A DNA stretch of 64,000 bases, from positions 11,671 to 75,670 of the forward strand of contig JABDBP010000003.1 in assembly GCA_013288565.1 (NCBI GenBank), written 5' to 3'. The notes beneath the pieces are model-generated. The model was given only the letters and a program-made list of their open reading frames with translations. It made no database searches and had not been told where the DNA came from. Each line of letters begins with the position of its first letter. The stretch's first letter is position 1. Shown in pieces: positions 5,291 through 22,276 of this stretch. The DNA is from Alphaproteobacteria bacterium (lineage in GTDB: Bacteria; Pseudomonadota; Alphaproteobacteria; Rickettsiales; JABDBP01). The position numbers and the translations under genes are program-made.

Positions 5291-5920
5291 ATGAAAAAGC
5301 CAAAACTGTTAGCTTTGATTTTGCTGGCGATTTGCCATATGGCTGCATCTCCGGCAAATGCTGGGTTTTCGGGTATTTTTGCCAATGAGAGCATTTCGCA
5401 AAACCTAAAACCATTTCCCAGATGGGTCAGGGTTACGGTGCAGCATCCAAAGGATAGGAAGCTTATCGGCAACCCTTGCATGGGTAGGGAAAATAGTTGT
5501 TTCATGAATTCCTGGGCAGATTTTATCTCCTCGTTACGCAACAAGCCGCCCTTAGAGCAGATAAAAGCGGTGAATAGCCAGATGAATCGCTCGGAATATG
5601 TGACTGATCTTGCCAATTGGGGGATCAATAATTATTGGGAGACGCCGCTGGAATTCCTTAAAAAAAGCGGCAATTGCAAGGATTATGCTATCGCCAAGTT
5701 CTATTCGCTGAAGGAGCTTGGCTTCCCGGAGGATGACATGCGTATAGTGGTGCTGATGGATAATAACATCCACATTCTGCATAGCGTTCTGGTGGTGAAG
5801 TTCCACGGGCAGGAATTGGTTCTCGATAATCAGGTGAAGCAGATAGTCTCATCCGATAAGATTTATCATTACGAGCCGATTTACGCGGTGAACGAAACCG
5901 GCTGGTGGCGCTACCAATAA
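5291..5920 (+). CDS. Bacterial transglutaminase-like cysteine proteinase (BTLCP, LapG family), periplasmic
   Basis: The signal peptide is MKKPKLLALILLAICHMAASPANA. The Cys-His-Asp context (GNCKDYAIAKFYSL, ILHSVLVV, LVLDNQ) is typical of the LapG/DUF920 family. The ORF track starts at 5270; the ATG at 5291 is the better start. Confidence 0.75.
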   Translation: MKKPKLLALILLAICHMAASPANAGFSGIFANESISQNLKPFPRWVRVTVQHPKDRKLIGNPCMGRENSCFMNSWADFISSLRNKPPLEQIKAVNSQMNRSEYVTDLANWGINNYWETPLEFLKKSGNCKDYAIAKFYSLKELGFPEDDMRIVVLMDNNIHILHSVLVVKFHGQELVLDNQVKQIVSSDKIYHYEPIYAVNETGWWRYQ

Positions 5921-5952
5921 AAAAGCGCCGGATTTTACCCCAGCGCTTTTTT
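5921..5952. terminator. Possible bidirectional terminator hairpin between convergent genes
   Basis: aaaagcgc...gcgcttttttt forms a GC stem flanked by an A-run and a T-run. It sits between the 3' ends of 5291-5920(+) and 5971-6330(-). Confidence 0.4.
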
Positions 5953-5970
5953 TATAGTTGCTTAAAATAA

Positions 5971-6330
5971 TCAGTGCAGGACGTTGGCCACAGCTTCGGC
6001 GAGCGCCGGTTCAATTGCCTCTTTCTTGGAACCGGCCTTGGCCAGTTTCCGGTTCCGGTCAACCAGCAGTTTTATCGCCTGCGCCGCTTCTTTCGTCGGG
6101 ATCATCAGGGTTTCCTGATCGCCTTGATGGGCGGTGCATTTGAAATGTATATTCCCGCCGCTGAATAATTCCTCGATCGTCCCCGCCGCCCCGATATAAA
6201 CATCCATGGCGACGCCGTCCTCATTTTTCCCGGGAACGGTGACGCCGCGCACTTCCGGCCATGACGTGTTAACTTTCGCGGATTCAGACATAAAGGCGTG
6301 CGCCCCCGAAGCGGTATATGAACTGTGCAT
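5971..6330 (-). CDS. Hypothetical protein (~119 aa)
   Basis: The ORF has a good RBS (aggaga) upstream of the ATG at 6330; the track ORF extends to 6384. I recognise no motif. Confidence 0.45.
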   Translation of the reverse strand: MHSSYTASGAHAFMSESAKVNTSWPEVRGVTVPGKNEDGVAMDVYIGAAGTIEELFSGGNIHFKCTAHQGDQETLMIPTKEAAQAIKLLVDRNRKLAKAGSKKEAIEPALAEAVANVLH

Positions 6331-6689
6331 AGTTTTCTCCTGTTTAATCGCTATGAAGCCATTGTAACCGAGAAAGGTTAACAAAAGGTTAACGCGGGAA
6401 GGAATTGTTAATAGTTTGATTTATAGCGATTATTTGTGGGAAAAATGGATGGGATTTTAGATAAATCGCCGGGGAATTTGCGGGTTAGCAACTTAGGCGG
6501 GGTTGAAGTGGGTGAGGCGGGTGGCCGAGGAGGCTGTTGGTAGTGGAGGATAGTTTTTACTGGGATCCGGAGAGGGAAGGGGTTTTGGAATCATTATAAT
6601 TGAGAACTTAAGTATTTAAGTGCTGACAGATTTATTATATTATCCGGGAAACCTACTGTAAGTAGGTCTTCTTTAGAAACAAGTTAGTT

Positions 6690-7847
6690 ATGCCTATCGA
6701 ATCAGCAGCAACACTAAAAAAAGAAGTAAAACTTGTTCTCAAACAACAAGGATATAGCGTTAAAAGGAATGGCCTTTTCCTCCTGGAAAATAATGAGCGT
6801 GAGGAAAGGCGTAAAGTTCACGAAATAGCGAAGGCTGAGCGCGTAAAAGAAAAAGAAAATTTTCTCCGTAGAAATCTCAAATTAATAAAAAATCATTTAA
6901 TTGATGGCAAAAAACTGGAAATTGAGAAAATTGATCCAGTTTTAATAGAGGTTGAACCTGAGAGTGAAGAAGAACGACTATTCCGTTGGTGGAATATTAT
7001 TTGGTGGAGTCTGCCTTATGAGAGGGCTTATGGGCGCCAGATGCGCTTTATCGTCTGGGATAAATATCATGATGCTCCTATAGGTCTTATAGGTTTACAA
7101 AGCCCGATTTTAAGCTGGGGACCACGGGATAAATATCTTGGCATCGCTCCAGATGAGCGGGATTTTTGGGTAAATCAATCATTAAGTGCCCAGCGAATAG
7201 GGGCATTGCCCCCTTACAATGATATCCTGGGTGGAAAACTTGTTTCTCTTCTCATGACTGCCGATATTGTGCGGCAGAAATTCCGCAAAAAATATCGCAA
7301 TCAGAAGACTGTATTAGAAAAGCGGATACTACCTTCAAACCTCCTTTTTATTACCACCACCGGTGCATACGGTAAAAGCAGTGTATATAATCGTCTTCGG
7401 TTTAAGGATGAAACAGTAGCAAAATTTATTGGTTATACTCAGGGGAACGGAACCTTCCACATCCCAAACGCCCTCTACGAGGATTTGGTGAAGTACCTTG
7501 AGAAAAGAAAATATGATGTTAGGCGCGGGTACGGAAGCGGACCTTCCCGAAAATTGCGCTTGATTGACCTTTCGTTACAATTATTGGGCTTTGCGAATGG
7601 GATCTCTCATGGAATTAAGAGAGCACTATATTTATTCCCTATGGTTCACAATCTGGAAGACGTTATTCAGAAAGGGGAACGACCCGAATGGACTGATAGA
7701 AATATTGAGGAAATGACAGCATTTTGGAAAGAAAAATGGGCTTTACGCCGTGCCGAGAATAATAAATCATACTTAGAGTTTGATAGTGAAGATTTTGCTA
7801 CACAAACCCTATTAGACATAGAAAAATATAAGGAATTACTATCATAA
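6690..7847 (+). CDS. DUF4338 / Druantia DruA-like domain protein
   Basis: The central block (RQMRFIVWDKYHDAPIGLIGLQSPILSWGPRDKYLGI ... SAQRIGALPPYNDILGGKLVSLL) matches my memory of the DUF4338 core pattern (lrylv..g.pvallgfs.pa....RD.wiGw ... R.l.lP...nl.s..L.l). The N-terminus is basic and coiled. Coding sequence is AT-rich. Confidence 0.55.
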   Translation: MPIESAATLKKEVKLVLKQQGYSVKRNGLFLLENNEREERRKVHEIAKAERVKEKENFLRRNLKLIKNHLIDGKKLEIEKIDPVLIEVEPESEEERLFRWWNIIWWSLPYERAYGRQMRFIVWDKYHDAPIGLIGLQSPILSWGPRDKYLGIAPDERDFWVNQSLSAQRIGALPPYNDILGGKLVSLLMTADIVRQKFRKKYRNQKTVLEKRILPSNLLFITTTGAYGKSSVYNRLRFKDETVAKFIGYTQGNGTFHIPNALYEDLVKYLEKRKYDVRRGYGSGPSRKLRLIDLSLQLLGFANGISHGIKRALYLFPMVHNLEDVIQKGERPEWTDRNIEEMTAFWKEKWALRRAENNKSYLEFDSEDFATQTLLDIEKYKELLS

Positions 7848-7897
7848 CTAACTCTCAAGAATTAGAAACGCGCTCTTACGCGTACTTACCCGAAGAA

Positions 7898-9052
7898 TTG
7901 CTAGGGAAAATTCTTGAGCATCTACCAAATACCGTGGACAAAATGAACGCGCTGTTTGACATCCAAGATGAGCCTATACAGCAAGGAATAAAGCATCTGC
8001 GGGATACTGGAAAGATAGCAAAACTTTCCACCAAAGATTTTTCAGGTTCATTAGTAGCTGTTGACGGCAGCATGATTGTAGAAAAGATGACGGGCTCCGA
8101 TTTGCTTCTGGTGCTGGCGGTCGGCGTGGAAGGTCTTACAGAAGATAAAACAAAAGACTGGGGTACTGCCAAGAATCAGTATTACCAATGGCAGACGGTT
8201 TTACCTCACGACAGCGCGAATAGCAGTTTGGCTCAAGGCACAATGTTCTTGATGGAATTAAGCGTTTTAGCGAATTGCGACCATGAAATAAGAATCATGG
8301 ATGGCACTCATTTTACTTCTATTATAAAAATTAATAGTATGCTTTCGGCTAGTGATGAAAAGGCTGGAAAAGAGTACGCAGAAGCGCTACGAACATTTCT
8401 AAAGGAAACATACAGTAAAATCATTCCTGATATTCCTGACATTATCCAGTCTGCATTCAATAATGATAAAATTATAGCCTTGGCTAAATACAGTTCTTCA
8501 AAAGACGTTATAGAGGCGTTTTTGGGAGCGCAGAATATAAGACTTGATGATAAAACATTTTTCTCACTTGCGCTTGATGAGGATGAATATCTAATACCAT
8601 TGTCAGTTGGCCAAAGTAAGGATGAAAGAGAAAGGATTTGGGATGACCTCCATATCAAGTGCAACCTTAATATACCAGAGCGCGTCGAGTTGAATACAGC
8701 ACTTGCCGAAGCTATCAATCCTCTCAGAACTAGAGACAATCAATCAAAAAAGGATAAGGAATCTGCACTCTATTATACCTATTACAAACCCTACCAAGAT
8801 GGCCCTGCATACCGGATTGAATTAAAGAAATCATTGGTGGCTGATAGTCAGCGTTTAGAAAAATACCTTCTCAGTATTAAGAAACAGATTGTTTTTCCCG
8901 AAATCAGAGAACCATATCCGCAATATCTGGTTGATATAATGGCCAAAGGTATATCTACCGGAATGGTAGCTATCCAAGAGGGAATTAAACTTTCACCAAA
9001 TCTGAAAATAGATAAAGGATATTTCAACTTATTATTTAACTATAGAACCTGA
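7898..9052 (+). CDS. NurA-like nuclease domain protein
   Basis: LVAVDGSMIV and HEIRIMDGTHFTS resemble the two Asp-bearing NurA motifs (..DGS.. and lllDGsl). The track start is a TTG. The frame is open from 7832 and an ATG lies at 7943, so the start is uncertain. Confidence 0.55.
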   Translation: MLGKILEHLPNTVDKMNALFDIQDEPIQQGIKHLRDTGKIAKLSTKDFSGSLVAVDGSMIVEKMTGSDLLLVLAVGVEGLTEDKTKDWGTAKNQYYQWQTVLPHDSANSSLAQGTMFLMELSVLANCDHEIRIMDGTHFTSIIKINSMLSASDEKAGKEYAEALRTFLKETYSKIIPDIPDIIQSAFNNDKIIALAKYSSSKDVIEAFLGAQNIRLDDKTFFSLALDEDEYLIPLSVGQSKDERERIWDDLHIKCNLNIPERVELNTALAEAINPLRTRDNQSKKDKESALYYTYYKPYQDGPAYRIELKKSLVADSQRLEKYLLSIKKQIVFPEIREPYPQYLVDIMAKGISTGMVAIQEGIKLSPNLKIDKGYFNLLFNYRT

Positions 9053-9054
9053 AT

Positions 9055-10845
9055 ATGGCCAAAACTTTTTCTCAAGAAATCTTAGAAAGAATTAAAAATT
9101 CTGGGAACGCGGCAATGGGGATAACTGGCTCTCCAAGTAATACCCTGGAAGTTGTTATTGACATTACTGAAGTTACTAAAACTGACCGCGCACTTGGGCA
9201 AATGGTTTATGTATCTTTAGAAGAAGATGGCAGAAACGTACTAGTTATAGGCCAGATTATTGAGATTGAAACTAAAAATAGATGGCACGAAGACCCTTCT
9301 TTTAAGGGCGTAATCAAAAGGCACGGAAGTTTGCCGCACTTAAGTGGCGCGGCAGATAACAGGATTGCATCTATTAGCGTTCAAGCATGTTATGATTTAG
9401 GTCAGAGTGACCCTAAAGGCTATATACTCGGAACCTCACCATCGACAGGTATAAAAGTATTTAAGATGGATAATCATGTTATGGCTGCCTTAATGAAGGT
9501 ACACGATAAAGCCGTTACATATATAGGCAAGGTGTATGGGACAGAAGTTAATCTACCTTTCTGGTTTAAGCACTTTGATAAAGATGATTTGAATAATCAT
9601 GAATATGGTGCAAAAGATGCCTATCATATTGGGATTTTCGGAAAAACTGGTTCTGGGAAGACAGTAACGGCATCCCTGGCGCTTCTTGGTTATGTAAAAA
9701 ATAAAAATAATATCAGCGTATTAGTACTTGATCCACAAGGCCAATTTTACCTGGATCAGGACTTACTTCCCTCGGGAGGAAGTCTAGCCACAGAAATAAA
9801 GAAAGGAATGAAGTATAAGAAATACAAAATACTAGAGGATATTTATTTGCCTGGCGATAATACCGAGTTGTTTGCTAATTTATTGTTAAATAACGGATTT
9901 ATTAAACAAGTATTTAAACTATATACTCTAGAAATAGAAGAGCGGGCCGCTCAAGCAGTTGTAGGTTATTTAGACGGCAGGTTTAATAAGGGTAGTTTCT
10001 CTTTAAGCACAATTTCTGATCCCATAGAATTGCTTAAACAGATGCTTAAGCGATTCATAGCCCTTAATGACAAACAGGAAAAAGAAGATGAGTACTCTAA
10101 GTATATTATGGATATTTACGGAACAGCAAACACCAGGCAAAGATTGGCAAGAAGAATTAATAATCTATTAGAAAGTATTGATAACGAAATTGATTTAAGA
10201 AATAAATGGTCTGCAACCCTACAGCTGTTTTCTGAAAAGAAATCCAATGGCAGCGAAAAAATACCCATAAAGCAAATTGTGCAAGAGATTGTTGAAGAAA
10301 ATGGTAACTTTATTATTTTAGATATTAGTCCTAAAGAAGGGGAAATAGAGAATGAAAACCTGCAAGCAAGATTTGTTACTCTCATTGAGAGCGCTATTGT
10401 GGAAGCAGGGGCAAATTTTTACGCTAAAAGAAAGAAGGCTAATGCGCTAATCGTAATGGATGAGGCACACAGATTTATATCTACTGATACAAAAGATGAA
10501 AAGATAAAGGAATTAACAAAGGAAATAGTTGATTCTGTAAGAACTACACGAAAGTATGGCATAGGGTATATGTTTATTACTCAAACTATTGAATCCTTAT
10601 CAGAAGAAATAATAAGGCAAATGAGGATCTTTGGTTTTGGTTATGGCCTTACATCTGGACAGGAGTTAAAAAAAGTAAGCGAAGTAGTGAATAACAATGC
10701 GGCAATTAAATTGTATAAATCATTCATTGATCCAAGTAGTAATGGGAAATTTCCATTTATGTTCTTTGGCCCAATTTCTCCTCTCTCCTTCACAGGTTCC
10801 CCCCTGTTCATTGAAGTCTACAATGACCTAAAAAACTTTAGGTAA
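9055..10845 (+). CDS. HerA/FtsK-superfamily ATPase (HerA-like, DUF87-type)
   Basis: Motifs are Walker A GIFGKTGSGKT, LVLDPQGQF, Walker B ALIVMDEAHRF, and RKYGIGYMFITQT. The N-terminus looks like a barrel segment (VLVIGQIIEIETKN). The ORF starts 2 nt after the upstream stop. Confidence 0.8.
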   Translation: MAKTFSQEILERIKNSGNAAMGITGSPSNTLEVVIDITEVTKTDRALGQMVYVSLEEDGRNVLVIGQIIEIETKNRWHEDPSFKGVIKRHGSLPHLSGAADNRIASISVQACYDLGQSDPKGYILGTSPSTGIKVFKMDNHVMAALMKVHDKAVTYIGKVYGTEVNLPFWFKHFDKDDLNNHEYGAKDAYHIGIFGKTGSGKTVTASLALLGYVKNKNNISVLVLDPQGQFYLDQDLLPSGGSLATEIKKGMKYKKYKILEDIYLPGDNTELFANLLLNNGFIKQVFKLYTLEIEERAAQAVVGYLDGRFNKGSFSLSTISDPIELLKQMLKRFIALNDKQEKEDEYSKYIMDIYGTANTRQRLARRINNLLESIDNEIDLRNKWSATLQLFSEKKSNGSEKIPIKQIVQEIVEENGNFIILDISPKEGEIENENLQARFVTLIESAIVEAGANFYAKRKKANALIVMDEAHRFISTDTKDEKIKELTKEIVDSVRTTRKYGIGYMFITQTIESLSEEIIRQMRIFGFGYGLTSGQELKKVSEVVNNNAAIKLYKSFIDPSSNGKFPFMFFGPISPLSFTGSPLFIEVYNDLKNFR

Positions 10846-10880
10846 ACAAATGTCTTTATGGATATGGTAAGCAATTATGT

Positions 10881-11663
10881 CTACCCAAACTCATAAGCAT
10901 CCATCGCCAATACGCCCTGAGCTACTTCGTTATGTAACCGCTTTGCTTTTAGCGGCTTTCCGGCAGCGCCGAGGGATACGAAAAACGGCAAGAAATGCTC
11001 CGGAGTTGGATGGTTCTCTATGGCATGTGGTGCGAGTTTCTGCCATTCAACCAGGCTTTCAATATCCCCTTCCGCCACTTTGGCAGCAATCCATTCGGAA
11101 AATTCGGTCACCCAAGTTGGCGCCTTGGCATGATTGCCGGTCATGGTTTCACGTAAATTATGCGTCAAGTTTCCGGTGCCGATGATTAATATTCCTTCCT
11201 GGCGGAGTGGCGCTAAAGCCGTGCCGATCTGGTAATGCCAGCGCGCATCTCGCTCAGGCTGCACCGATATTTCCACAATCGGAATATCGGCATTCGGATA
11301 TATCAGCATTAGCGGGCTCCATACCCCGTGATCGAACCCTCGGCCTGGATCTATCCCGGCCTGTAACCCCGCATCATCCAGCAATTTCTTTACCATGGCC
11401 GCGAGTTTAGGATCGCCCGGAGCATCATAGTAAATTTGATAAAGCTCTTTCGGGAAACCACGAAAATCATGAATGGTTCTGGGCTTTCCCGCGCCATTTA
11501 CCATTGGTGAATCGGTTTCCCAATGCGCGGAAGCGACCACGATAGCCTTTGGCCGGGGCAAGTTTGCGGCGATGCCGCGCAGGAAATCGGCAGTTGGATT
11601 ATTTTTCTCTAACGCTAACGTCGGTGCGCCGTGGGAGATAAATAAAGATGGCATATGCATCAA
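10881..11663 (-). CDS. ygiD: Class III extradiol dioxygenase (LigB family, 4,5-DOPA dioxygenase-like, YgiD type)
   Basis: MPSLFISHGAPTLALE is a typical N-terminus for this family. The 260-aa size and the HNLRE and HFLPFF regions also fit. Confidence 0.8.
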   Translation of the reverse strand: MMHMPSLFISHGAPTLALEKNNPTADFLRGIAANLPRPKAIVVASAHWETDSPMVNGAGKPRTIHDFRGFPKELYQIYYDAPGDPKLAAMVKKLLDDAGLQAGIDPGRGFDHGVWSPLMLIYPNADIPIVEISVQPERDARWHYQIGTALAPLRQEGILIIGTGNLTHNLRETMTGNHAKAPTWVTEFSEWIAAKVAEGDIESLVEWQKLAPHAIENHPTPEHFLPFFVSLGAAGKPLKAKRLHNEVAQGVLAMDAYEFG

Positions 11664-11691
11664 TTCAAGCTAGGCGGTGCGGTGCAAAGCG

Positions 11692-12630
11692 TCAATAAGC
11701 TATTCCTAAGAACGCGCGGAGATAACTTACAGTGCTTTCCGCCAGTGCTGGTAAATTATATCCGCCTTCCAGCATGGAAATTACTTTGCCGCCGCAACAT
11801 TCATTGGCGATGCTGGATAATTGGTTCCCGATCCATTGATAATCTTCTTTTGTCAGTTTTATCGATGCCAGCGGGTCATCGCGATGGGCATCGAATCCTG
11901 CCGATGCCAAAATAAGTTGCGGCTTAAAATTTTTGAGCGCCGGGATAACATTTTCCGAGAAAATATTGCGATAGGCTTTTCCGGCAGTTCCGGCCGGTAA
12001 TGGTATATTTATAAGATTTCCCACGCCCTTTTCATTTGGCTGCCCGGTTCCCGGATAATGCGGCCATTGATGCGTGGAAATGTATAGAACGCTTGCATCC
12101 CGCGCAAACGCATCTTGTGTTCCATTGCCATGATGCACATCAAAATCCACTATCGCCACCCGCTGCAAATTATATTTTTGCATGGCATGCCGCGCGGCGA
12201 TGGCGATGTTGTTGAATATGCAAAATCCCATCGCTCGGCTGGGAGTGGCATGATGGCCGGGCGGGCGCACCGCGCAGAATGCGCTTTTGTATTTACCCTG
12301 CATCACATCATCAACGGCCTGGCATCCGGCACCGACAGCGCGTAGCGCCGCCGGGAAACTTCCTTTGGAGATTACGGTATCCGCATCGAGGTAAGCCAGT
12401 GATTCATCTGCGGGAATTGAACTCTCGACAAATCCCAGATGATCTGGCGTATGCACCAGCAATATCTGGTCTCTGGTGCCAACCGGGGCGTTGACAAAAT
12501 CCAGCTTGCCCGAGAAGTCACAAGATTTAAGCGCGTCCATGATGGCCGCCAGCCGAGCCGGGCTTTCCGGATGCATGGAGCCGGTCTCATGCTGCAGGCA
12601 ATCCGGATGCGAGAATATCGCAGTCTTCAT
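11692..12630 (-). CDS. Histone deacetylase-family amidohydrolase (acetoin utilisation / acetylpolyamine deacetylase-like)
   Basis: The motifs are RPPGHHA, DFDVHHGNGTQ and GFDAHRDDPL. Confidence 0.85.
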   Translation of the reverse strand: MKTAIFSHPDCLQHETGSMHPESPARLAAIMDALKSCDFSGKLDFVNAPVGTRDQILLVHTPDHLGFVESSIPADESLAYLDADTVISKGSFPAALRAVGAGCQAVDDVMQGKYKSAFCAVRPPGHHATPSRAMGFCIFNNIAIAARHAMQKYNLQRVAIVDFDVHHGNGTQDAFARDASVLYISTHQWPHYPGTGQPNEKGVGNLINIPLPAGTAGKAYRNIFSENVIPALKNFKPQLILASAGFDAHRDDPLASIKLTKEDYQWIGNQLSSIANECCGGKVISMLEGGYNLPALAESTVSYLRAFLGIAY

Positions 12631-13151
12631 CTAGGTTTCCCCGGTTTCAACGTGTCTTTCATACTTCTCTAGTTTCCTTTCGACCTATCCCACTTAATCC
12701 AAGGAATCCCTAATGCACTGACAAACCTCATTATTTCATTGGTTATCAAGCTGAGCACGGTTTATTCGCTATCCTATAATAGGAACTACCTGCCTAGCGC
12801 GGCTTGGGAATCACTAAAATCCTATCTTTATTTCCTATTATTATTCAATGGATCAGGTCGGAATAATTTTTTAGCATGGAGCTTGCGTGAATATAATAGC
12901 CGTATGTTACAAAATCTTAATTATTAAAGAGAAATATTTTATGATGCTAATACTGTTGTTCCATTGTGTCCGGGCGCCAAGTAACGCATTGATAAATCTA
13001 TAATTTCGTATTGTAATTTTTGTAACAAATATTTAATAAAAATTAACTGGAATTTAACCAGTTATTAGCTATTATGTAATAGTATCTTTATGTATTTAAG
13101 TAATAGCATGTAGACAGATCGGAATTACACATTTTAACAACAGGAGTATTT

Positions 13152-13685
13152 ATGAATTATATGAAAACTAAACAAGTGAAGCTCTCTCTTTTAATCGCTT
13201 CCTTTGTTTTGATTATCGGAGCGGGATTTTCCGCGCAGGCGCTGGTTTTTGGCAGCAACGCTGTGGTTAGCTTCGTAGCCCCAATTACCGTTACCGCCAA
13301 CACACTCCCGAACTTTGGTAATGTAATAACAGACGTTTCGGGTCAAACCCTTACTTTAAGTACCACTGGAGCCATATCCGGCGCCAATTCCTCGGATTAT
13401 GTCAGTGGTGCGTTAGCCGGTAACTATACTATCAAAGGTTCTGCGAGTAGTACGATCGCTATTAGCATTGGCGGCTATGGCGCAGACCATAACGTAGTCC
13501 CTTCGGCAGCTACCTGCGCCTATAACGGGGGTGCCGTATCTTCTCCTTGCAACCTTAGTACCCAGGTCGCTCCCGGCAATGCAGGAAAAACTTTACTGGT
13601 GGGGCTTACGATGACTACCAACAACACTGAAACCGATGGCACTGTCGCTAACCCGACTTTTCAGATAACCGTCGTCTATGACTAA
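13152..13685 (+). CDS. DUF4402-type secreted pilin-like subunit (paralogue 1)
   Basis: The protein has a signal peptide. APITVTANTLPNFGNV, a Cys pair (AATCAYNGGAVSSPC) and the C-terminal FQITVVYD match my memory of DUF4402 proteins (APITIt...l.FG ... vtVaYn). Confidence 0.6.
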   Translation: MNYMKTKQVKLSLLIASFVLIIGAGFSAQALVFGSNAVVSFVAPITVTANTLPNFGNVITDVSGQTLTLSTTGAISGANSSDYVSGALAGNYTIKGSASSTIAISIGGYGADHNVVPSAATCAYNGGAVSSPCNLSTQVAPGNAGKTLLVGLTMTTNNTETDGTVANPTFQITVVYD

Positions 13686-13712
13686 ATATACTATTAAGTA
13701 AGCTATCGAAAA

Positions 13713-13736
13713 GGGACGCAACTGCGTCCCTTTTTA
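13713..13736 (+). terminator. Rho-independent terminator
   Basis: gggacgc-aact-gcgtccc is a perfect 7-bp stem followed by ttttt. It lies 27 nt after the stop of the first pilin gene. Confidence 0.65.
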
Positions 13737-13987
13737 TTAAACTTAGCCTTTAATACTAATCCATTCTTTCCTAATTCCTCCTGCCTTACTTCTTATTTCC
13801 ACCTGATTGTGCAAGATAGTCTAGCGTGATCAAGCAGATAGATTATACCTATAGGAATTTTTACAAATTTTGAAGGTTATTTAATAAAATTATTCCTGGT
13901 AATTTATTGAAATTGCTGGGTTTTTCTTCATATTGTCACGATAAATTTCTTGAATCAGAACCTGCGGAACTGTACTCTAGTCAATGA

Positions 13988-14500
13988 ATGCAGAGCTTAA
14001 AAACCTTTTGTGCGCTCCTTATAGTCGCAATAATATTTGGCTTCGGTCTTGAAGCTAAAGCGGTGACGCTTTCCACCAATGCTGTAGTTAGATTTGTCAG
14101 CCCGCTTGTGATTGCCACTAACCAGTTGCCGAATTTTGGATCAGTCGCCACAGGGGGAGCCGGCCGGGTGCTGACCCTAGATACGAACGGGAACATAACC
14201 AACACCAATGCCGCAGATTACATGAGTGGTGCGGCGGTAGGGAAATATACCGTCACTGGCTCAAGTAATAATACCGTCAATATAAGCGCGCAAAACTATG
14301 TCGCTAACAATAATGTAATTCCATCCGCTGCCACCTGCGCCTATAACGGCGGTACGGCGAACCCTTGCAATCTAGCGGCGCAGGTAGCTCCAGGATCGGG
14401 CAAAACATTGCTGGTTGGAATAACTATCACCACCAGCGGCGTCAGCAATGATGGTGATACCGCAAACCCAATGTTTGATCTCGTCGTAACTTACAATTAA
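13988..14500 (+). CDS. DUF4402-type secreted pilin-like subunit (paralogue 2)
   Basis: The architecture matches 13152-13685: SPLVIATNQLPNFGSV, AATCAYNGGTANPC, and an FDLVVTYN end. It has a signal peptide. Confidence 0.6.
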   Translation: MQSLKTFCALLIVAIIFGFGLEAKAVTLSTNAVVRFVSPLVIATNQLPNFGSVATGGAGRVLTLDTNGNITNTNAADYMSGAAVGKYTVTGSSNNTVNISAQNYVANNNVIPSAATCAYNGGTANPCNLAAQVAPGSGKTLLVGITITTSGVSNDGDTANPMFDLVVTYN

Positions 14501-14630
14501 TCGGCGCTTTAAAGCCCCTTCAAGTAATAATGATCCAGCGCAACATAATATAGCTTAAATCGCTATATAACATCCCCCATTTATAAACCTTTTAGTTGCG
14601 TCCGCATCATCATAGCATTATGCATTTGGA

Positions 14631-15119
14631 ATGTGTTTTGCTAATCATATGCGTTATGCGGTGCTTTTCCTATTTTTATTACTATGCCCTGTGCTTTCAT
14701 GGGCGGCAATCCAGATCTCGGAAATTACCCCGATAAATTTCGGCATGATCCAGATACCTGCTGCCGGCACCGAGACTTTTACCATCAACGGGTCAACAGG
14801 GAGTGCCAGCGGAATCGGGACTTCGCTGAACAATATCCAGACACGGGGCCAATATACCATTACTAACACCGATCATGTGAACGATGTCACGGTTACGATA
14901 GATGTCGAGAATAACGGTGGCGGTGGGGTGTTACAAATGAATAACTTTACCGGTCAGTTCGGCTCCACCACTATCAACAGGTTTCCGGTGTCGTCGCTGC
15001 TGCTACGGAAAGGGCAGAGCCTCACGCTTTATCTGGGGGCAACAATCAGCTATAACCAGAATGTGAGCGATGGCACTACCTATAATCCGGCCTATAACAT
15101 TATGGTCAATATTCCATGA
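14631..15119 (+). CDS. DUF4402-like minor subunit
   Basis: The signal peptide may start at MRYAV (14649). EITPINFGMIQIP is the shared N-terminal motif and the protein ends in YNIMVNIP. Its stop overlaps the next start (ATGA). Confidence 0.5.
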   Translation: MCFANHMRYAVLFLFLLLCPVLSWAAIQISEITPINFGMIQIPAAGTETFTINGSTGSASGIGTSLNNIQTRGQYTITNTDHVNDVTVTIDVENNGGGGVLQMNNFTGQFGSTTINRFPVSSLLLRKGQSLTLYLGATISYNQNVSDGTTYNPAYNIMVNIP

Positions 15120-16003
15120 GCGCGTCATATTTTATCCGGAGTCGATTTATGCAGAAGAAATTTATTTTTCACTTATGTGCGGTTATTCTGCTCGGCACAG
15201 TTCTTATCCTTCCCAGCCCTATCATGGCAGATGAAAATGCCGGCCTTCTGCTTCTGCCGACCAGGATAGTGCTTGGAGAGCGGAATCGCAACGTGGAGCT
15301 ACTGGTTAAAAATAATGGTGGTGCACGCGGGCTCTACCGCATCGAAGTGATCGATATGGACATGCAGGAGAATGGTGCTATCCAGCCTCTGGAAGGTGAT
15401 AAGGAGGAGCCTTTCTCGGCCAAGAAATTCATCCATATATCGCCGCGCCAGATGATTTTGGAGCCAGACCAGACTCAGACACTACGTGTCATTGTCAGGA
15501 AGCCTTCAGGGCTCGAAGATGGCGAATACCGTGCCCATATAAAAGCAACGGTGGTGGAAAATAATGTCGATCCCAGCGGTAGCCCTATTTCGCCCAAGGA
15601 ACCTGAGAAAGGAATGAGTGTCGCCGTTAAAACCCGATTTTCGATAGTCATTCCGGTACTGGTTATGCAGGGGCAATTACATGTTAACGTTGCTTTTGGT
15701 GAAACAAAGCTGCGTGAGGAAAATGGAGCATATTATCTGGATACGGAAATCACCCGGGAAGGCAACCGCTCCGGGTTTGGTGATATAACTGTGACCTACC
15801 AGCCTGCGGCAGGAGACAAACCAACCGTAGTCAAATACCAGCCTGGGCTGGCTGTTTACCGGCCGATGGCCAAACGTAAAATATCGCTGCCGCTCGATGT
15901 GCCGAAGGGTATGAAGATTGCTAATGGTAAATTGATCATGACATATACTACCCAGGAAAAAGACGGCGGTGCCTTGTTGGCGCAAAAAGAAATCGGAATC
16001 TAA
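15116..16003 (+). CDS. PapD-like periplasmic pilus chaperone
   Basis: LLLLPTRIVLGERNRNVELLVKNNG and ISPRQMILEPDQTQTLRVIVRKPSGLEDGEYRAHI fit the two-strand signature of chaperone-usher chaperones. It has a signal peptide. An alternative start is MQKK at 15149. Confidence 0.6.
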   Translation: MSASYFIRSRFMQKKFIFHLCAVILLGTVLILPSPIMADENAGLLLLPTRIVLGERNRNVELLVKNNGGARGLYRIEVIDMDMQENGAIQPLEGDKEEPFSAKKFIHISPRQMILEPDQTQTLRVIVRKPSGLEDGEYRAHIKATVVENNVDPSGSPISPKEPEKGMSVAVKTRFSIVIPVLVMQGQLHVNVAFGETKLREENGAYYLDTEITREGNRSGFGDITVTYQPAAGDKPTVVKYQPGLAVYRPMAKRKISLPLDVPKGMKIANGKLIMTYTTQEKDGGALLAQKEIGI

Positions 16004-16055
16004 TGATGTTGCTGCACTGCCTTTCTGAGTATGTCAGAGGAAAAGGATGAGATAG

Positions 16056-19000
16056 GTGGCTAACGGGAAGTCACTGCTCATTATTTTTGCCGCCTTTCTG
16101 ATCTCAACCGTATCTGTAGAGGCGAGAAGCCAGGAGATTCCGCCGCAAAAGATATTTACCCCGGAAAGTGCGATAAAAGTCGATCTTAAATACCGGGATA
16201 CCAGTTTAGGAACTATAGAAGGTTATTCCAACAACGGTAGTTTCCTGGTGCCGCTCGGGGTGATTGCCAGCAAGCTGAAATTCAATATTACGATAGACGC
16301 GCCAAACGCCACCGCGAGCGGTTGGTTCTTGAGCCCGAGCCGCATCTTCGTCCTGCATGTCAATACCGGCCAGGCCATCATCGAGGGCAAGGAGGTAAAA
16401 ATTCCCCCCAATACTGCTTTCATAAATAAAGGTGAGATCTATGTAGATATAGCCCTGCTGGAAAGTTTTTTCCCGCTGAATTTACGGATCGATACCAACC
16501 AGGGCTATTTACAAATTCTTCCCAATGAACCCTTCCCCGGCCTGGAAGAAACAAGTCCCACGGAAAAAACCCTGCCGGCAAAACCTGTGCCTCTCCAAGC
16601 TGCACCATCCGAGCAACCTTCTACGCAACCAGCGAAGCCTGTGCAGGAGAAAGAGCAGCTAGATGCCTTGAATGAGGATAATCTGGTTATATTCCAGACG
16701 ATGCTTGATAAGATCGCGCTTGAAAATTTCATTGAAGGCTATAGCACCGAAAATCAGAATTACCTGATTTCCTTTAGCGACCTCATGCATTTGCTTGATT
16801 TTCCCATAACCTTTGATCCTTTAACCAATACTGCCAAAGGTTGGTTCGTAAAAGAGGAAAACACTTTCCTGTTGAACGTGAAGGAAGGATTCGCCGAAAT
16901 CAAGGGTCAGAGAACCAGCTTCCCTAAGGCGCAAGTGAGAATTAAAGACGGAATGCTTTTCGTTAACAGCGAGTTACTCGCGCGTTGGTTTCCTTTGGAA
17001 TTCAAGTTCGATCTTGCTTCACTCATCATGCATATCAACCCAACTGAGCCACTGCCGATAATGACTAAAATGGAGCGGGAGAAAAAGCTGGAGAAATTCC
17101 AGAAACAGCAACAGAAACAGGCAGTGGTTTATGACCGGATTGAAGCGCCATACCAGGGAATTAGTTTTCCGTTTCTCGATTTAGATTTGAATACCGGATT
17201 CACCCATAATGCGAATTCTGCCAACAACCTAACCACAAGCCTGACCAATAATAACTTTATCACCAATACCGGTACGACGGTTCCCATTGTGCCGGTTACT
17301 TCAGGCAATACTGCCCCCAATAAAGGCTCTTTTTATGGCTATTCTGTTGTCGGCGGCGGTGATCTCGCCTATTTGAGCGCTAATACTTATGTTGCCGGTA
17401 ATAACGATAGAAATCCCGAGATAGCGCGGTTGGACCTCGGCCGCAAAGATGCGGATGCCCAGCTGCTAGGGCCTATGCATGCCACGGCATTTGATGTCGG
17501 GGACATCAATTCCGGTTCGGTGCCACTGGTTGCCACTACCAGCTTAGGGCGCGGCGTTTCTGTTACCAACTTGCCGGTGAACAGCAACCTTGAATTCGAC
17601 CATGTGAGCCTGGTGGGTGATAGCATTGCCGATTGGGATGTTGAGCTTTACCGGAACGATGCCCTGATAGATTTTCAGCATGTTGGAACCGATGGCAGAT
17701 ATCAGTTCATCAACGTGCCGTTGCTCTATGGAAATAACATCTTCCGCCTAGTGTTCTATGGACCGCAAGGACAAACACGTGAGGAAACTAGGCAATATAA
17801 CATTGGCGATGAGGTTTTGCACCCGGGGGAGTTCCGTTATTTTGCCTCGGTTGATCAAAAATCGCAATCTCTCTTCGGCCTGAATGAGGATTTTGGGGTA
17901 CAGAATACCAAGGACGTGCGTTATGTGAGCGACTTCCAATTTGGCCTAACAAAATGGCTTACCGGAGTGGTTGGAGCTGTTTCGACTCCACTGATTGATG
18001 GCGTGCATAATTATCTGACTTCCGGGCTCCGCGCCGATATGCTCGGATCAATAATTGGGTTTGATGGCGCGGTAACCGATAATAATCAATGGGCAACCAA
18101 AACCACCCTTGTCACCGCCATCAAGGATGTAAGCCTTAAGCTGGAACAGCGATTCTATTCGGACAACTATACCAGTGAGGAAAATGTACTAACAGGAGCG
18201 ACGCCTACCTCGCTATCGCAGATCGACCTCAACACTTCCTTCCCTTCTTTCCTATTCTTGCCCTATATGACTATGGGTTTGAATGTGAAAAACGAAACGT
18301 TCCCAACCGGCGATCAGCAATTCATCACGCACCGATTTACTACCTCGATCAGCGGCATTGGTATCAGCAATAACCTGACTGCCACTTACTCCCCTGGCCT
18401 GGATACTTACATAGGCGATTTCGCGCTGCGTGGCAATCTGTTCGGCTGGAATATCCATAACGTTCTCGAATATGAGTTGCAGCCATTGGAGCAATTGCAG
18501 AAAATCGATTTGGTTCTGCAGCATAATATCACACAAAATGTTTCTGACCGTATCGAGATTCAGAAGGATTTAGTCGAGTCTAGTGCGTCCACCTATCTAA
18601 ATTCCATCATATGGGATCGTCAACTTTATAAGATCAGTCTGGAAACTTCGGTCAGCGAGAGAGGGGATGCGCAAATTCTCGGCCGCCTTACCTTCTCGCT
18701 GGCAAAAGACCCTAGAAGCAATGATGTTCGTACCACAAGCCAAAGTCTGGCTAGCAAGGGTGGAGTGGTCGCCAAGACTTATCTAGATACCAATAATAAC
18801 CAGAAATTGGATGATGGGGATCAATTGATCACGGAACCTCTTGGTTATAACGTCGGCGGCAAAAAATATACTGCGAACAATGATGCGGAAGACCTGATAC
18901 TAGGCGTGGATACCTACCGACCGGTGAATATTGAGATCGATCAAAGCCAGATTCCTGACCCGCGTTGGGTTCCCTATAAAAACGGCTATACAGTGATAAC

Positions 19001-19418
19001 GCATCCGGGCGCCGCACCGGAAGTTGATTTCCTTCTCACCGCTACCAGCGATATTGATGGTATCGTTTATGTCAATGGCGTAGGGGAGGGCGGACAGCCC
19101 TTTGAAGTACCGCTGGAAGGTTCTACGGTGGAACTGGTCAATGATGATGGAAAGGTAATCGCCACCCAGCGTTCGGAATTCGATGGCTTTTTTGATTTTG
19201 AAAAAGTGTTTACCGGGCATTATGTCTTAAGGATCAAGGCCTCTGAGCTTGAAGAAAAGAAACTGGCAGAGCGGGAAACTCAGGAAATTACAGTTACCAA
19301 TAAAAGTGATTCTTACAGCGGCAAAGATATCCATTTGATCCGTGCGGATGTCCCTGCAGGTAATAAGACTGGCGGGGGAAATATAAATTATCCGGTCAAC
19401 CCGGGTATTACTGAATGA
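16056..19418 (+). CDS. Large secreted/outer-membrane protein, putative usher-equivalent of the DUF4402 pilus locus
   Basis: The 1120-aa protein has a signal peptide. Two related ~100-aa N-terminal modules are separated by a Pro/Gln-rich linker. A long beta-rich middle follows. The C-terminus looks like a carboxypeptidase-regulatory domain (GSTVELVNDDGKVIATQRSEFDGFFDFEKVFTGHYVLRI). The start codon is GTG. Confidence 0.45.
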   Translation: MANGKSLLIIFAAFLISTVSVEARSQEIPPQKIFTPESAIKVDLKYRDTSLGTIEGYSNNGSFLVPLGVIASKLKFNITIDAPNATASGWFLSPSRIFVLHVNTGQAIIEGKEVKIPPNTAFINKGEIYVDIALLESFFPLNLRIDTNQGYLQILPNEPFPGLEETSPTEKTLPAKPVPLQAAPSEQPSTQPAKPVQEKEQLDALNEDNLVIFQTMLDKIALENFIEGYSTENQNYLISFSDLMHLLDFPITFDPLTNTAKGWFVKEENTFLLNVKEGFAEIKGQRTSFPKAQVRIKDGMLFVNSELLARWFPLEFKFDLASLIMHINPTEPLPIMTKMEREKKLEKFQKQQQKQAVVYDRIEAPYQGISFPFLDLDLNTGFTHNANSANNLTTSLTNNNFITNTGTTVPIVPVTSGNTAPNKGSFYGYSVVGGGDLAYLSANTYVAGNNDRNPEIARLDLGRKDADAQLLGPMHATAFDVGDINSGSVPLVATTSLGRGVSVTNLPVNSNLEFDHVSLVGDSIADWDVELYRNDALIDFQHVGTDGRYQFINVPLLYGNNIFRLVFYGPQGQTREETRQYNIGDEVLHPGEFRYFASVDQKSQSLFGLNEDFGVQNTKDVRYVSDFQFGLTKWLTGVVGAVSTPLIDGVHNYLTSGLRADMLGSIIGFDGAVTDNNQWATKTTLVTAIKDVSLKLEQRFYSDNYTSEENVLTGATPTSLSQIDLNTSFPSFLFLPYMTMGLNVKNETFPTGDQQFITHRFTTSISGIGISNNLTATYSPGLDTYIGDFALRGNLFGWNIHNVLEYELQPLEQLQKIDLVLQHNITQNVSDRIEIQKDLVESSASTYLNSIIWDRQLYKISLETSVSERGDAQILGRLTFSLAKDPRSNDVRTTSQSLASKGGVVAKTYLDTNNNQKLDDGDQLITEPLGYNVGGKKYTANNDAEDLILGVDTYRPVNIEIDQSQIPDPRWVPYKNGYTVITHPGAAPEVDFLLTATSDIDGIVYVNGVGEGGQPFEVPLEGSTVELVNDDGKVIATQRSEFDGFFDFEKVFTGHYVLRIKASELEEKKLAERETQEITVTNKSDSYSGKDIHLIRADVPAGNKTGGGNINYPVNPGITE

Positions 19419-19755: not shown

Positions 19756-20007
19756 CTAATTATTTTTCTTAGCGAAGTAAGTTTCATGAATGTAATTTTC
19801 TGTTTCTTCATCAGGCTCGCCTTCTCCGGAAGCGATAATAACCCCAAAATCTTCCGGACTAGTGGTTTTAGTCATTAATGCGAGTTTCAAGTCGCGGACA
19901 CGGTGTTTATAAAGAGCAAGGTATATATAAACCCTTTCACCATCCGTATTAAAACCACGGATTAGTTGAATTTCTATCTTTTTTTCTTTTGTTAATTTAT
20001 AGCCCAT
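19756..20007 (-). CDS. Small hypothetical protein (83 aa), last gene of the island operon
   Basis: The start MGYKLTKEKK lies 4 nt after the upstream stop. The longer track ORF (to 20082) overlaps the upstream gene. I recognise no motif. Confidence 0.45.
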   Translation of the reverse strand: MGYKLTKEKKIEIQLIRGFNTDGERVYIYLALYKHRVRDLKLALMTKTTSPEDFGVIIASGEGEPDEETENYIHETYFAKKNN

Positions 20008-20011
20008 ACCG

Positions 20012-22243: not shown

Positions 22244-22276
22244 AACATTTAGAGAACTATTATTTTAGCGGGATTG

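What the first reader, a model, noticed from the sequence alone, without database searches (positions are those of the whole stretch)
6600..10880. Low-GC three-gene cassette (DUF4338/DruA-like + NurA-like nuclease + HerA-like ATPase): candidate undescribed defence-type system
Seen in the sequence:
- Three co-directional ORFs (6690-7847, 7898-9052, 9055-10845) are tightly packed, with a 2-nt gap between the last two.
- They sit in a block that is clearly more AT-rich than the flanking chromosomal genes. The flanks are the hypothetical gene at 5971 and the ygiD-like gene at 10881, both on the opposite strand.
- ORF3 has a full HerA/FtsK motif set: GIFGKTGSGKT, LVLDPQGQF, ALIVMDEAHRF and RKYGIGYMFITQT.
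- ORF2 carries VAVDGS and IRIMDGTHF, which resemble the two acidic NurA motifs.
- ORF1 has a core I recognise as DUF4338, the domain that defines Druantia DruA.

Established knowledge:
- HerA-NurA pairs are DNA-end-processing machines.
- HerA hexamers also partner with SIR2 or DUF4297 effectors in known antiphage systems.
- DUF4338 marks type I Druantia.

Inference:
- The trio looks like a horizontally acquired, self-contained nuclease-translocase module with a DruA-like sensor or adaptor.
- I am not aware of a described system with this composition.
Basis: partly seen in the sequence, partly recalled or inferred. Interest (0 to 1): 0.85.

Follow-up and report, generated by a model that had tools for sequence, protein, structure and literature searches.

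The report
Mobile DruA–NurA–HerA three-gene cassette
A horizontally acquired three-gene cassette pairs a Druantia-type DruA protein with a NurA nuclease and a HerA DNA motor; the trio recurs as a unit across bacteria and archaea, I found no description of it in the searchable literature, and it is most likely an untested defence system against phages or other invading DNA.

Summary
Three co-directional genes (6690-7847, ~7844-9052, 9055-10845) form a low-GC block (~0.38 against ~0.49). They encode a DruA/DUF4338 protein (Pfam 1e-65) with a GNAT-like fold, a divergent NurA nuclease and a HerA-family ATPase.

The three genes are adjacent in every assessable locus out of 41 distinct loci surveyed. 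These span Patescibacteria, Nitrospirales, Gammaproteobacteria, Cyanobacteria and an archaeon. Gene order is permuted in some loci and the neighbourhoods vary, sometimes including restriction-modification genes, an OLD-family nuclease or recombinases. The three proteins' identity matrices correlate (Mantel r 0.87-0.92).

It is not Druantia, because DruB-E are absent. It is not the canonical repair NurA-HerA either. No searchable paper mentions both NurA and Druantia.

Most likely reading: a compact anti-invader module. A HerA hexamer with a NurA dimer degrades DNA, and DruA acts as sensor or modifier. A defence function is inferred, not shown.

Caveat: in this window NurA lacks the ATG start that all 36 other loci examined have, so this copy may be impaired.

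Novelty: new variant of a known kind. Interest about 0.62.

The parts
6590..6689 (+). AT-rich leader of the cassette and left edge of the low-GC block. It contains a 7-bp-stem hairpin/palindrome at 6651-6667 (ACCTACTGTAAGTAGGT), 23 nt before the ORF1 ATG.
   Evidence: GC falls from 0.52 (6501-6600) to 0.33 (6601-6700). The hairpin was found and the sequence read. No sigma-70-like promoter was found on the + strand here.
6690..7847 (+). ORF1, 385 aa: DruA/DUF4338-family protein with a GNAT-like acyltransferase fold.
   Evidence: Pfam DruA 9.6e-66 and PADLOC DruA 7e-87. The AlphaFold model has pLDDT 84, and its top PDB fold hits are nearly all GNAT enzymes such as GCN5, KKT23, HAT1 and LasI (prob 0.87, E about 0.09). 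It is 28-31% identical to canonical type I Druantia DruA over about 87% of its length. Motifs shared with type I DruA: R119, G132, R146, D147, Y202, G228, S230, R235 and PPYN..GGKL at 174-184.
7844..9052 (+). ORF2: divergent NurA-family (RNase H-like) nuclease. The full-length frame is about 402 aa starting at ATA 7844, which overlaps the ORF1 stop codon. The mechanical ORF starts at TTG 7898 (384 aa). A public gene call starts at ATG 7943 (369 aa). The canonical start codon is missing.
   Evidence: Pfam NurA 3e-7, above the gathering score. The top 8 PDB fold hits are all NurA (prob up to 0.96, E 3e-3). Acidic residues D56, E78, E120, D135, D217/D218 and D346 are invariant across 30 sequences, including Microcystis and the archaeon. 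Start-codon analysis.
9055..10845 (+). [quoted passage not shown]
   Evidence: Pfam DUF87 6.4e-9; PADLOC mad8 3e-14 and HerA 2.6e-13. A profile search of PDB sequences matches only HerA-family proteins: TdpA 4e-8, 8wiv HerA 4.5e-8, Sulfolobus HerA 4d2i 1.7e-6. Walker A (G196-K202), Walker B (D469, E470) and R499 are invariant.
10846..10881 (.). Right edge of the insertion: a 35-nt spacer (10846-10880) between the ORF3 stop and the convergent LigB-family gene, whose stop codon begins at 10881.
   Evidence: DNA similarity to the nearest relative (80% over window 10882-12633) ends here. GC rises to 0.53 from 10901.

Best explanation
The block is a self-contained, horizontally mobile three-gene module. 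It has not been named in any literature I could search. Its most probable role is defence against invading DNA such as phages or other mobile elements.

Shown:
- The three genes are inherited and transferred together across bacteria and archaea.
- All three proteins keep their catalytic or nucleotide-binding residues.

Inferred from the biochemistry of characterised NurA-HerA complexes:
- ORF3 forms a hexameric ring that pumps double-stranded DNA using ATP.
- An ORF2 dimer caps the ring, splits the strands and cuts them. Together they act as a processive, end-dependent DNA-degrading machine.

Inferred from the DruA fold and its other contexts:
- ORF1 is the same protein family that heads type I Druantia, and it has a GNAT-like fold with a conserved loop at the CoA pyrophosphate-binding position.
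- It probably supplies specificity or control, either by sensing the invader and licensing the nuclease, or by acyl-modifying a protein or nucleic-acid target.
- In effect, the DruBCDE helicase module of Druantia I is swapped for NurA-HerA.

In this genome:
- The cassette was inserted next to a LigB-family gene.
- Its NurA has lost the canonical ATG. This copy may therefore be weakly expressed, through a rare ATA/ATC/ATT start coupled to the ORF1 stop, or it may be impaired.
For: Unit and co-inheritance:
- All three genes are adjacent in every assessable locus, whether anchored on NurA or on DruA.
- Order is permuted to NurA-HerA-DruA in Microcystis and the archaeon, and DruA is inverted in L012.
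- Mantel r is 0.87-0.92, p<=0.001, between the three proteins' identity matrices.

Mobility:
- Proteins are 50-89% identical across unrelated phyla.
- Neighbourhoods are heterogeneous.
- Recombinases lie nearby in several loci, and L045 has the trio between an integrase and a serine recombinase.
- In the window, GC is low and synteny breaks at the block edge, with the trio absent in the closest relative.

Defence flavour:
- DruA is otherwise the first gene of type I Druantia.
- Published work reports DUF4338 fused to DndF in DndFGH systems (PMC10853773).
- HerA ATPases partner with effectors in SIR2-HerA, DUF4297-HerA and TdpAB (PMC11472057, PMC11291478; PDB hits).
- Immediate neighbours include type IIG restriction-methyltransferases, type I HsdR, a Dam-class methyltransferase, an OLD-family nuclease, SNF2-PLD helicases and a Shedu SduA_C protein.

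Activity:
- Acidic NurA residues, HerA Walker A/B and the arginine finger, and the DruA core motifs are invariant.
- The NurA-HerA mechanism is taken from PMC9960219.
Against: - No experiment exists, and nothing here tests phage or plasmid restriction.
- The excess of defence genes among neighbours is modest, roughly 12-14 of 118 flanking genes, and was not tested against a background.
- Many loci, including all Nitrospirales and this window, sit among ordinary metabolic genes.
- The cassette is not on sequenced phages, IMG/VR contigs or plasmids. Its vehicle is therefore unknown.
- The GNAT assignment rests on weak Foldseek E-values (about 0.09) and a partial CoA-loop motif.
- The ORF2 model is only moderate (pLDDT 69, TM about 0.3 to NurA).
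- This copy's NurA lacks a canonical start codon.
Confidence: 0.55

Rival explanations
1. An accessory DNA-repair module. The NurA-HerA pair resects double-strand breaks for recombination, as in archaea and Deinococcus, with DruA as a regulatory acetyltransferase.
For: NurA and HerA are the defining pair of the archaeal and Deinococcus end-resection machine (PMC9960219; fold hits; PDB hit to Sulfolobus HerA). In Nitrospirales the cassette sits in a conserved, non-defence context.
Against: There is no Mre11-Rad50 linkage in the window or in any locus examined. Both proteins are very distant from the repair enzymes: the NurA profile finds no PDB NurA by sequence, and NCBIfam repair HerA scores 23.7 bits against a cutoff of 970. 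The cassette is rare, with 31 loci among 185,579 species representatives. It is patchy and highly similar across phyla, and always linked to a Druantia-family gene.
Confidence: 0.12
2. A function that serves a mobile element itself. Examples are DNA processing or pumping for transfer or replication of an integrative element, or an addiction or exclusion module, rather than host immunity.
For: HerA/FtsK ATPases also drive conjugative DNA transfer, and ORF3 gives weak hits to VirB4, TraC, TrwB and CedD. Serine or tyrosine recombinases lie near the trio in several loci. Sequence identity across phyla is very high.
Against: Most loci, including the window, have no recombinase, relaxase or other transfer gene next to the trio. 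No terminal or direct repeats bound the block. It is absent from plasmid, phage and viral-contig collections. A processive nuclease is an odd component for a transfer apparatus.
Confidence: 0.13
3. In this particular genome the cassette is an inactive or decaying remnant, whatever its ancestral role. This does not exclude the other readings.
For: All 36 other loci have an ATG 8-13 codons before the invariant YAxLP motif. The window has none between the upstream stop codon and TTG 7898. Public gene calling truncates the protein to 369 aa. L15 and P16 of the lost or uncertain N-terminus are invariant across the family. No sigma-70-like promoter was found upstream on the + strand.
Against: All three frames are otherwise intact, with no frameshift or internal stop, and every invariant residue is retained. 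The N-terminal motif is still in frame. ATA 7844 overlaps the ORF1 stop codon, so coupled re-initiation at a rare start codon is possible.
Confidence: 0.3

Closest known systems
Type I Druantia (DruABCDE)
   Same: ORF1 is a full-length homolog of DruA (Pfam 1e-65, PADLOC 7e-87; 28-31% identity over about 87% of the length of DruA from P. putida pKF715A and N. watsonii pNWAT01). It sits first in an operon of DNA-acting enzymes, and core motifs are shared.
   Different: There is no DruB, DruC, DruD or the roughly 1,840-aa DruE helicase that defines Druantia. NurA and HerA take their place. Trio DruAs are 50-82% identical to one another but only about 30% to type I DruA.
Archaeal and Deinococcus NurA-HerA DNA end-resection complex
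   Same: The same two protein families in adjacent genes. The RNase H-like nuclease keeps its acidic residues, and the hexameric ATPase keeps Walker A/B and the arginine finger. The mechanical logic is probably the same: a ring translocase feeds DNA to a dimeric nuclease.
   Different: Very distant in sequence. Not linked to Mre11-Rad50. Rare, patchy and horizontally mobile. Always accompanied by DruA.
HerA-effector defence systems (SIR2-HerA, DUF4297-HerA, TdpAB) and the 'HerA/FtsK capture systems' proposed by Aravind's group
   Same: A HerA-family ATPase paired with an effector in a compact mobile operon. ORF3's best solved relatives by sequence include TdpA and defence-system HerAs (PMC11472057, PMC11291478, PMC10853773).
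   Different: The effector here is NurA, not SIR2, DUF4297 or TdpB. A third, DruA-family gene is obligatory. NCBIfam antiphage HerA equivalog scores are 15-26 bits against cutoffs of 800-850.
BREX-Related Capture (BRC) system and DUF4338-DndF fusions
   Same: GNAT-type domains co-occur with HerA/FtsK translocases in predicted defence systems. DUF4338 is the GNAT domain fused to DndF in some DndFGH systems, whose DndH carries a HerA/FtsK domain (PMC12839542; PMC10853773).
   Different: BRC has seven components (PglZ, BrxC-like, STAND, DUF4007, HerA, GNAT, TGT) and no NurA. None of those extra genes is in the window or in the trio loci.

Membership tests
Type I Druantia | DruA (DUF4338/PF14236) protein | tested here: met
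   Pfam 9.6e-66 (222 bits, cutoff 27); PADLOC DruA 7e-87.
Type I Druantia | DruE: large YprA-family helicase with DUF1998 (about 1,800 aa), the signature gene of all Druantia types | tested here: not met
   The largest ORF in the 64-kb window is 1,120 aa and is a Cu_amine_oxidN1-domain protein. Canonical loci carry a 1,840-aa DEAD/DEAH helicase four genes after DruA. Nothing comparable follows DruA in any trio locus.
Type I Druantia | DruB, DruC and DruD genes between DruA and DruE | tested here: not met
   ORF2 has no PADLOC hit at E<=1, and ORF3 hits only HerA/mad8-type models. Only NurA and HerA follow DruA.
Canonical NurA-HerA double-strand-break repair system | NurA-domain nuclease with catalytic acidic residues | tested here: met
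   PF09376 30.6 bits against a cutoff of 21. The top 8 fold hits are NurA structures. D56, E78, E120, D135 and D346 are invariant. Mapping these residues onto the known NurA active site is by position in the fold, not by a residue-level alignment.
Canonical NurA-HerA double-strand-break repair system | HerA hexameric ATPase at equivalog level | tested here: not met
   Family-level match only: DUF87 36.7 bits. NCBIfam helicase_HerA scores 23.7 bits against a cutoff of 970, and HerA_Thermprot 19.7 against 800.
Canonical NurA-HerA double-strand-break repair system | Genomic linkage with mre11-rad50 and vertical, lineage-wide inheritance | tested here: not met
   No Mre11/Rad50-type genes appear among the neighbours. 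There are 31 loci among 185,579 species representatives, scattered over many phyla. The trio is absent from the closest relative of the window.
SIR2-HerA / DUF4297-HerA (Gao_Her) | SIR2 or DUF4297 effector next to HerA, and an antiphage HerA equivalog | tested here: not met
   The partner genes are DruA and NurA. NCBIfam HerA_antiphage_2 scores 25.7 bits against 850, and HerA_antiphage 15.3 against 800.
MADS (mad1-8) | Eight-gene mad operon including a methyltransferase | tested here: not met
   Only ORF3 resembles mad8 (3e-14). No other mad-like genes or methyltransferase lie in or beside the block.
GNAT acyltransferase superfamily (for ORF1) | GNAT fold with an acyl-CoA pyrophosphate-binding loop between strand 4 and helix 3 | tested here: inconclusive
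   Fold hits are consistently GNAT enzymes but weak (best E 0.086, prob 0.87, TM up to about 0.5 on the target). A conserved PPYN..GGK loop at 174-183 follows a strand and precedes a helix, but it is not a textbook Q/RxxGxG/A motif. Published assignment of DUF4338 as GNAT: PMC10853773. CoA binding cannot be tested with these tools.
Anti-phage defence system (general) | Experimental protection against phage, or statistically supported enrichment in defence islands | not testable with these tools
   Only qualitative context is available: restriction/defence genes among immediate neighbours in about 8 of about 28 independent loci.

The most novel reading that the evidence does not exclude
DruA is an active acyl-CoA-dependent transferase. 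It either marks self DNA or a host/phage protein, or directly gates the nuclease. The trio would then be a minimal modification-restriction-like system based on acylation rather than methylation, and the same chemistry would explain the unknown role of DruA in type I Druantia. DruA occupies the first position in type I operons. From my own recollection of Doron et al. 2018, which I did not check here, type II Druantia has a methylase (DruM) at that position.
Probability: 0.12. Interest if true: 0.9.

Novelty: new variant of a known kind. Interest (0 to 1): 0.62.

Why it matters
If it is a defence system, this is a very compact example of about 4.2 kb and three genes. It shows that the NurA-HerA end-resection machine has been recruited for immunity. 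It also shows that DruA is a portable module that can be plugged into different DNA motors: DruBCDE, NurA-HerA and DndFGH.

That gives a simpler experimental handle on what DruA does, which I found no published work on. It also warns annotators. NCBI's pipeline labels these proteins 'Druantia anti-phage system protein DruA' even where no Druantia system exists.

Tried and rejected
- Insertion scars. I searched 5900-11700 for direct or inverted repeats flanking the block and found only short chance-level matches, with no att-like or target-site duplication.
- Carrier element. I searched for ORF2 in sequenced phages (no match), IMG/VR viral contigs (none) and plasmids (one 24%-identity hit on a Rhizobium megaplasmid).
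- Clean empty site. Exact-protein look-ups of ORF3 and the LigB gene returned only the source contig. The closest relative (89% LigB identity) lacks the trio, but its left flank is also different, so it shows a synteny break rather than a precise empty site.
- Sequence search of the PDB for ORF1 and ORF2 found nothing, so I relied on fold searches.
- Methyltransferase as a fourth component. I considered it because a type IIG enzyme lies directly upstream in L001, L002 and L020/L021. I rejected it as a core part because most loci, and the window, lack it.
- Neighbouring large ORFs at 20012-24667. I checked them for defence models and found nothing convincing.
- Literature. Ten searches found no paper describing a DUF4338/DruA + NurA + HerA system. 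One search term was malformed.
Full report
**1. Observation**

The gap between the last two is 2 nt.

Both flanking genes are on the minus strand. The left one (5971-6384) has no Pfam hit. The right one (10881-11663) is a LigB/YgiD-type extradiol dioxygenase.

GC is 0.34-0.44 across 6500-11000 against about 0.47-0.52 outside. This is the lowest 2-kb bin in the 64-kb window. At 100-nt resolution the block runs from about 6600 to about 10900. All quoted motifs are present.

**2. Domain identities**

- ORF1 is a DruA/DUF4338 protein (Pfam 9.6e-66; PADLOC DruA 7e-87).
  - Its AlphaFold model is good (pLDDT 84, pTM 0.84).
  - Its PDB fold neighbours are almost all GNAT acyltransferases: GCN5, KKT23, HAT1, LasI, FeeM and ArsN. 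E-values are weak (best 0.086) but probability reaches 0.87.
  - This agrees with the published statement that DUF4338 is a GNAT domain (PMC10853773).
- ORF2 is a divergent NurA.
  - Pfam gives 3e-7, above the gathering score.
  - The top 8 fold hits are all NurA structures, including the 2026 T. kodakarensis HerA-NurA complex.
  - The model is only moderate (pLDDT 69), and sequence search of the PDB finds nothing.
- ORF3 is a HerA-family ATPase.
  - Pfam DUF87 gives 6.4e-9; PADLOC gives mad8 3e-14 and HerA 2.6e-13.
  - A profile of trio HerAs matches only HerA-type chains in the PDB: TdpA 4e-8, 8wiv 4.5e-8, Sulfolobus HerA 1.7e-6, 9c1m and 8xau.

**3. Likely activity**

I aligned 30 trio loci, including the most distant ones (Microcystis at 37% and an archaeon at 26% NurA identity). 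The following stay invariant:

- NurA: D56, E78, E120, D135, D217/D218 and D346 (384-aa numbering).
- HerA: Walker A (G196..K202), Walker B (D469, E470) and R499.
- DruA: R119, G132, R146, D147, Y202, G228, S230 and R235, all shared with canonical type I DruA. The loop P174-P-Y-N...G181-G-K-L184 is nearly invariant. It lies between a strand and a helix, where GNAT enzymes bind the CoA pyrophosphate.

Enzyme activity is therefore plausible for all three proteins, but it is inferred.

**4. The trio is a unit**

- NurA-like homologs are 66-89% identical in very different phyla.
- A scan of one genome per species (185,579 species) found 31 loci. They come from Patescibacteria, Nitrospirales, Gammaproteobacteria, Omnitrophica, Bacteroidota, Zixibacteria, Ignavibacteriales, Saccharibacteria, Eubacteriaceae, Brocadiales, Microcystis and an archaeon. 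The scan uses peptide patterns, so this count is a lower bound.
- In every locus with enough sequence, DruA-like, NurA-like and HerA-like genes are adjacent.
- The archaeal locus first seemed to lack DruA, but the gene directly after HerA is a DruA (Pfam 1e-15).
- The usual order is DruA-NurA-HerA. Microcystis and the archaeon have NurA-HerA-DruA, and L012 has DruA inverted. Linkage that survives rearrangement argues for a functional connection.
- Two look-ups anchored on DruA homologs gave the same trio.
- Pairwise identity matrices of the three proteins correlate strongly (Mantel r 0.87-0.92, p<=0.001). The cassette therefore moves and evolves as one piece.
- The NurA-like family is small: 413 clusters at E<=0.001 among 1.84 billion representatives.

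**5. Context**

Neighbours differ from locus to locus. Among 118 genes within two positions of the trio, the recurrent families were:

- type IIG restriction-methyltransferases (L001, L002, L020/L021);
- SNF2-PLD helicases (L001, L021);
- a type I HsdR (L008);
- a Dam-class methyltransferase (L011);
- an OLD-family nuclease (L018);
- a large N6/N4 methyltransferase (L025);
- serine recombinases (four or more loci).

A Shedu SduA_C protein lies nearby in L002. In L045 the trio sits between a tyrosine integrase and a serine recombinase, inside a housekeeping region.

By contrast, the Nitrospirales loci share conserved, non-defence flanks of radical-SAM/B12-binding genes and DUF3047. That suggests vertical inheritance there.

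The defence-island signal is therefore real but modest, and I did not test it statistically. The cassette is not found on sequenced phages, IMG/VR contigs or plasmids, apart from one distant hit.

**6. The window's copy**

The surrounding genes are chromosomal: FtsK, topoisomerase IV subunit A, an HD-GYP-type protein and a fimbria-like cluster.

The closest available relative has 89% LigB protein identity and keeps the HDAC-LigB pair. DNA similarity (80%) ends at 10882, one base after the LigB stop codon, and the trio is absent from that contig. Together with the low GC, this supports acquisition by horizontal transfer. No bounding repeats or recombinase were found.

One defect stands out. All 36 other loci have an ATG 8-13 codons upstream of the invariant YAxLP[DE][DE]L motif. 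The window has the motif in frame, but only ATT, ATC and ATA codons lie between the upstream stop codon and TTG 7898. A public gene call truncates the protein to 369 aa. L15 and P16 of that motif are invariant family-wide, so a truncated NurA is likely to be impaired. ATA 7844 overlaps the ORF1 stop codon, so coupled initiation at a rare start remains possible.

**7. How it most likely works**

The step from NurA plus HerA to a machine is taken from characterised complexes. A HerA hexamer translocates duplex DNA. A NurA dimer sits on the ring, separates the strands and cuts them (PMC9960219).

The third gene is the informative one. DruA otherwise heads type I Druantia, where it is followed by DruB-D and the roughly 1,840-aa DruE helicase. 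As a domain, it is reported fused to DndF in DndFGH systems. The simplest reading is that DruA is a portable control or specificity module, either a sensor or an acyl-transferring modifier, which is attached here to a NurA-HerA degradation engine. I put about 0.55 on the overall defence-module reading, and much less on any specific role for DruA.

**8. Comparison with known systems**

- It is not Druantia, because DruB-E are absent.
- It is not the canonical repair NurA-HerA. There is no Mre11-Rad50 linkage, it fails the equivalog thresholds, and it is rare and mobile.
- It is not SIR2-HerA, DUF4297-HerA, MADS, TdpAB or the seven-gene BRC system.
- ORF2 matches no PADLOC v2 model.
- No paper in the searchable library contains both 'NurA' and 'Druantia', and only four mention DUF4338.

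I rate it a new variant of a known kind, namely a HerA-plus-effector defence-type operon with a Druantia-derived component.

**9. Limits**

- No function was tested.
- Fold-search statistics are weak.
- The neighbourhood enrichment is qualitative.
- The host organism is only known to be an uncultured bacterium from run SRR8424233. Its LigB homologs that carry a source name are mostly labelled Pseudomonadota.
- The literature library does not hold most subscription-journal papers.

Noticed in passing
window 7829-7900: The NurA-like gene has no ATG, GTG or TTG before its conserved N-terminal motif. Only ATT (7835), ATC (7841) and ATA (7844, overlapping the ORF1 stop codon) are available. All 36 other loci examined have an ATG there.
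   Followed up: yes
window 6651-6667: A perfect 7-bp-stem palindrome (ACCTACT GTA AGTAGGT) lies 23 nt upstream of the ORF1 start. It could be an operator or an RNA hairpin. No + strand sigma-70-like promoter was found in the leader.
   Followed up: no
window 6470-6560: A G-rich, strongly GC-skewed tract (GGCGGGGTTGAAGTGGGTGAGGCGGGTGGCCGAGGAGGCTG...; skew 0.33 for 6501-7000) lies just outside the left edge of the low-GC block. Its origin and role are unknown.
   Followed up: no
model of window ORF1 against the BFVD viral structure library: Strong structural matches to DruA occur in giant viruses: Faunusvirus (E 1.5e-15, TM 0.63), Yasminevirus and Dasosvirus. There is also a fragment from an uncultured tailed phage at 29% identity. 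A preprint also reports DruA-like proteins in Synechococcus phages.
   Followed up: partly
P0219 / L024, and plasmid hits H2-H16: NCBI's annotation names trio-linked DUF4338 proteins 'Druantia anti-phage system protein DruA' although no DruB-E genes are present. The name is family-level and can mislead counts of defence systems.
   Followed up: partly
L026-L031, L033 (Nitrospirales): The trio sits in a conserved neighbourhood: two radical-SAM/B12-binding genes upstream and a DUF3047 gene directly downstream. This suggests stable vertical inheritance in that lineage, unlike the variable contexts elsewhere.
   Followed up: partly
L045 6546-16068: A small island holds a tyrosine integrase, a DivIC-domain gene, the trio, an HTH gene, a Zn-ribbon gene, several small ORFs and a serine recombinase. 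It is inserted between Mur-ligase-region genes and ribosomal protein L25, so it is a candidate vehicle for the cassette.
   Followed up: no
window 13152-19418: A cluster of two paralogous secreted proteins of about 170-177 aa, a DUF4402-like protein (borderline, E 1.4e-4), a weak PapD-like chaperone hit and a 1,120-aa protein. It looks like a chaperone-usher-type fimbrial locus.
   Followed up: partly
window 20012-24667 (minus strand): Two large adjacent ORFs (743 and 796 aa) lie in a second lower-GC stretch (0.41 for 20001-22000). They give only weak hits (NTR module, Helicase_C) and no PADLOC match. Function unknown.
   Followed up: partly
window 10881-12633 against L042: The HDAC-LigB gene pair is conserved with the nearest relative (80% DNA identity). 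Everything to the left of LigB differs, including the genes beyond the trio. The site is therefore a synteny breakpoint, not just a simple insertion.
   Followed up: partly
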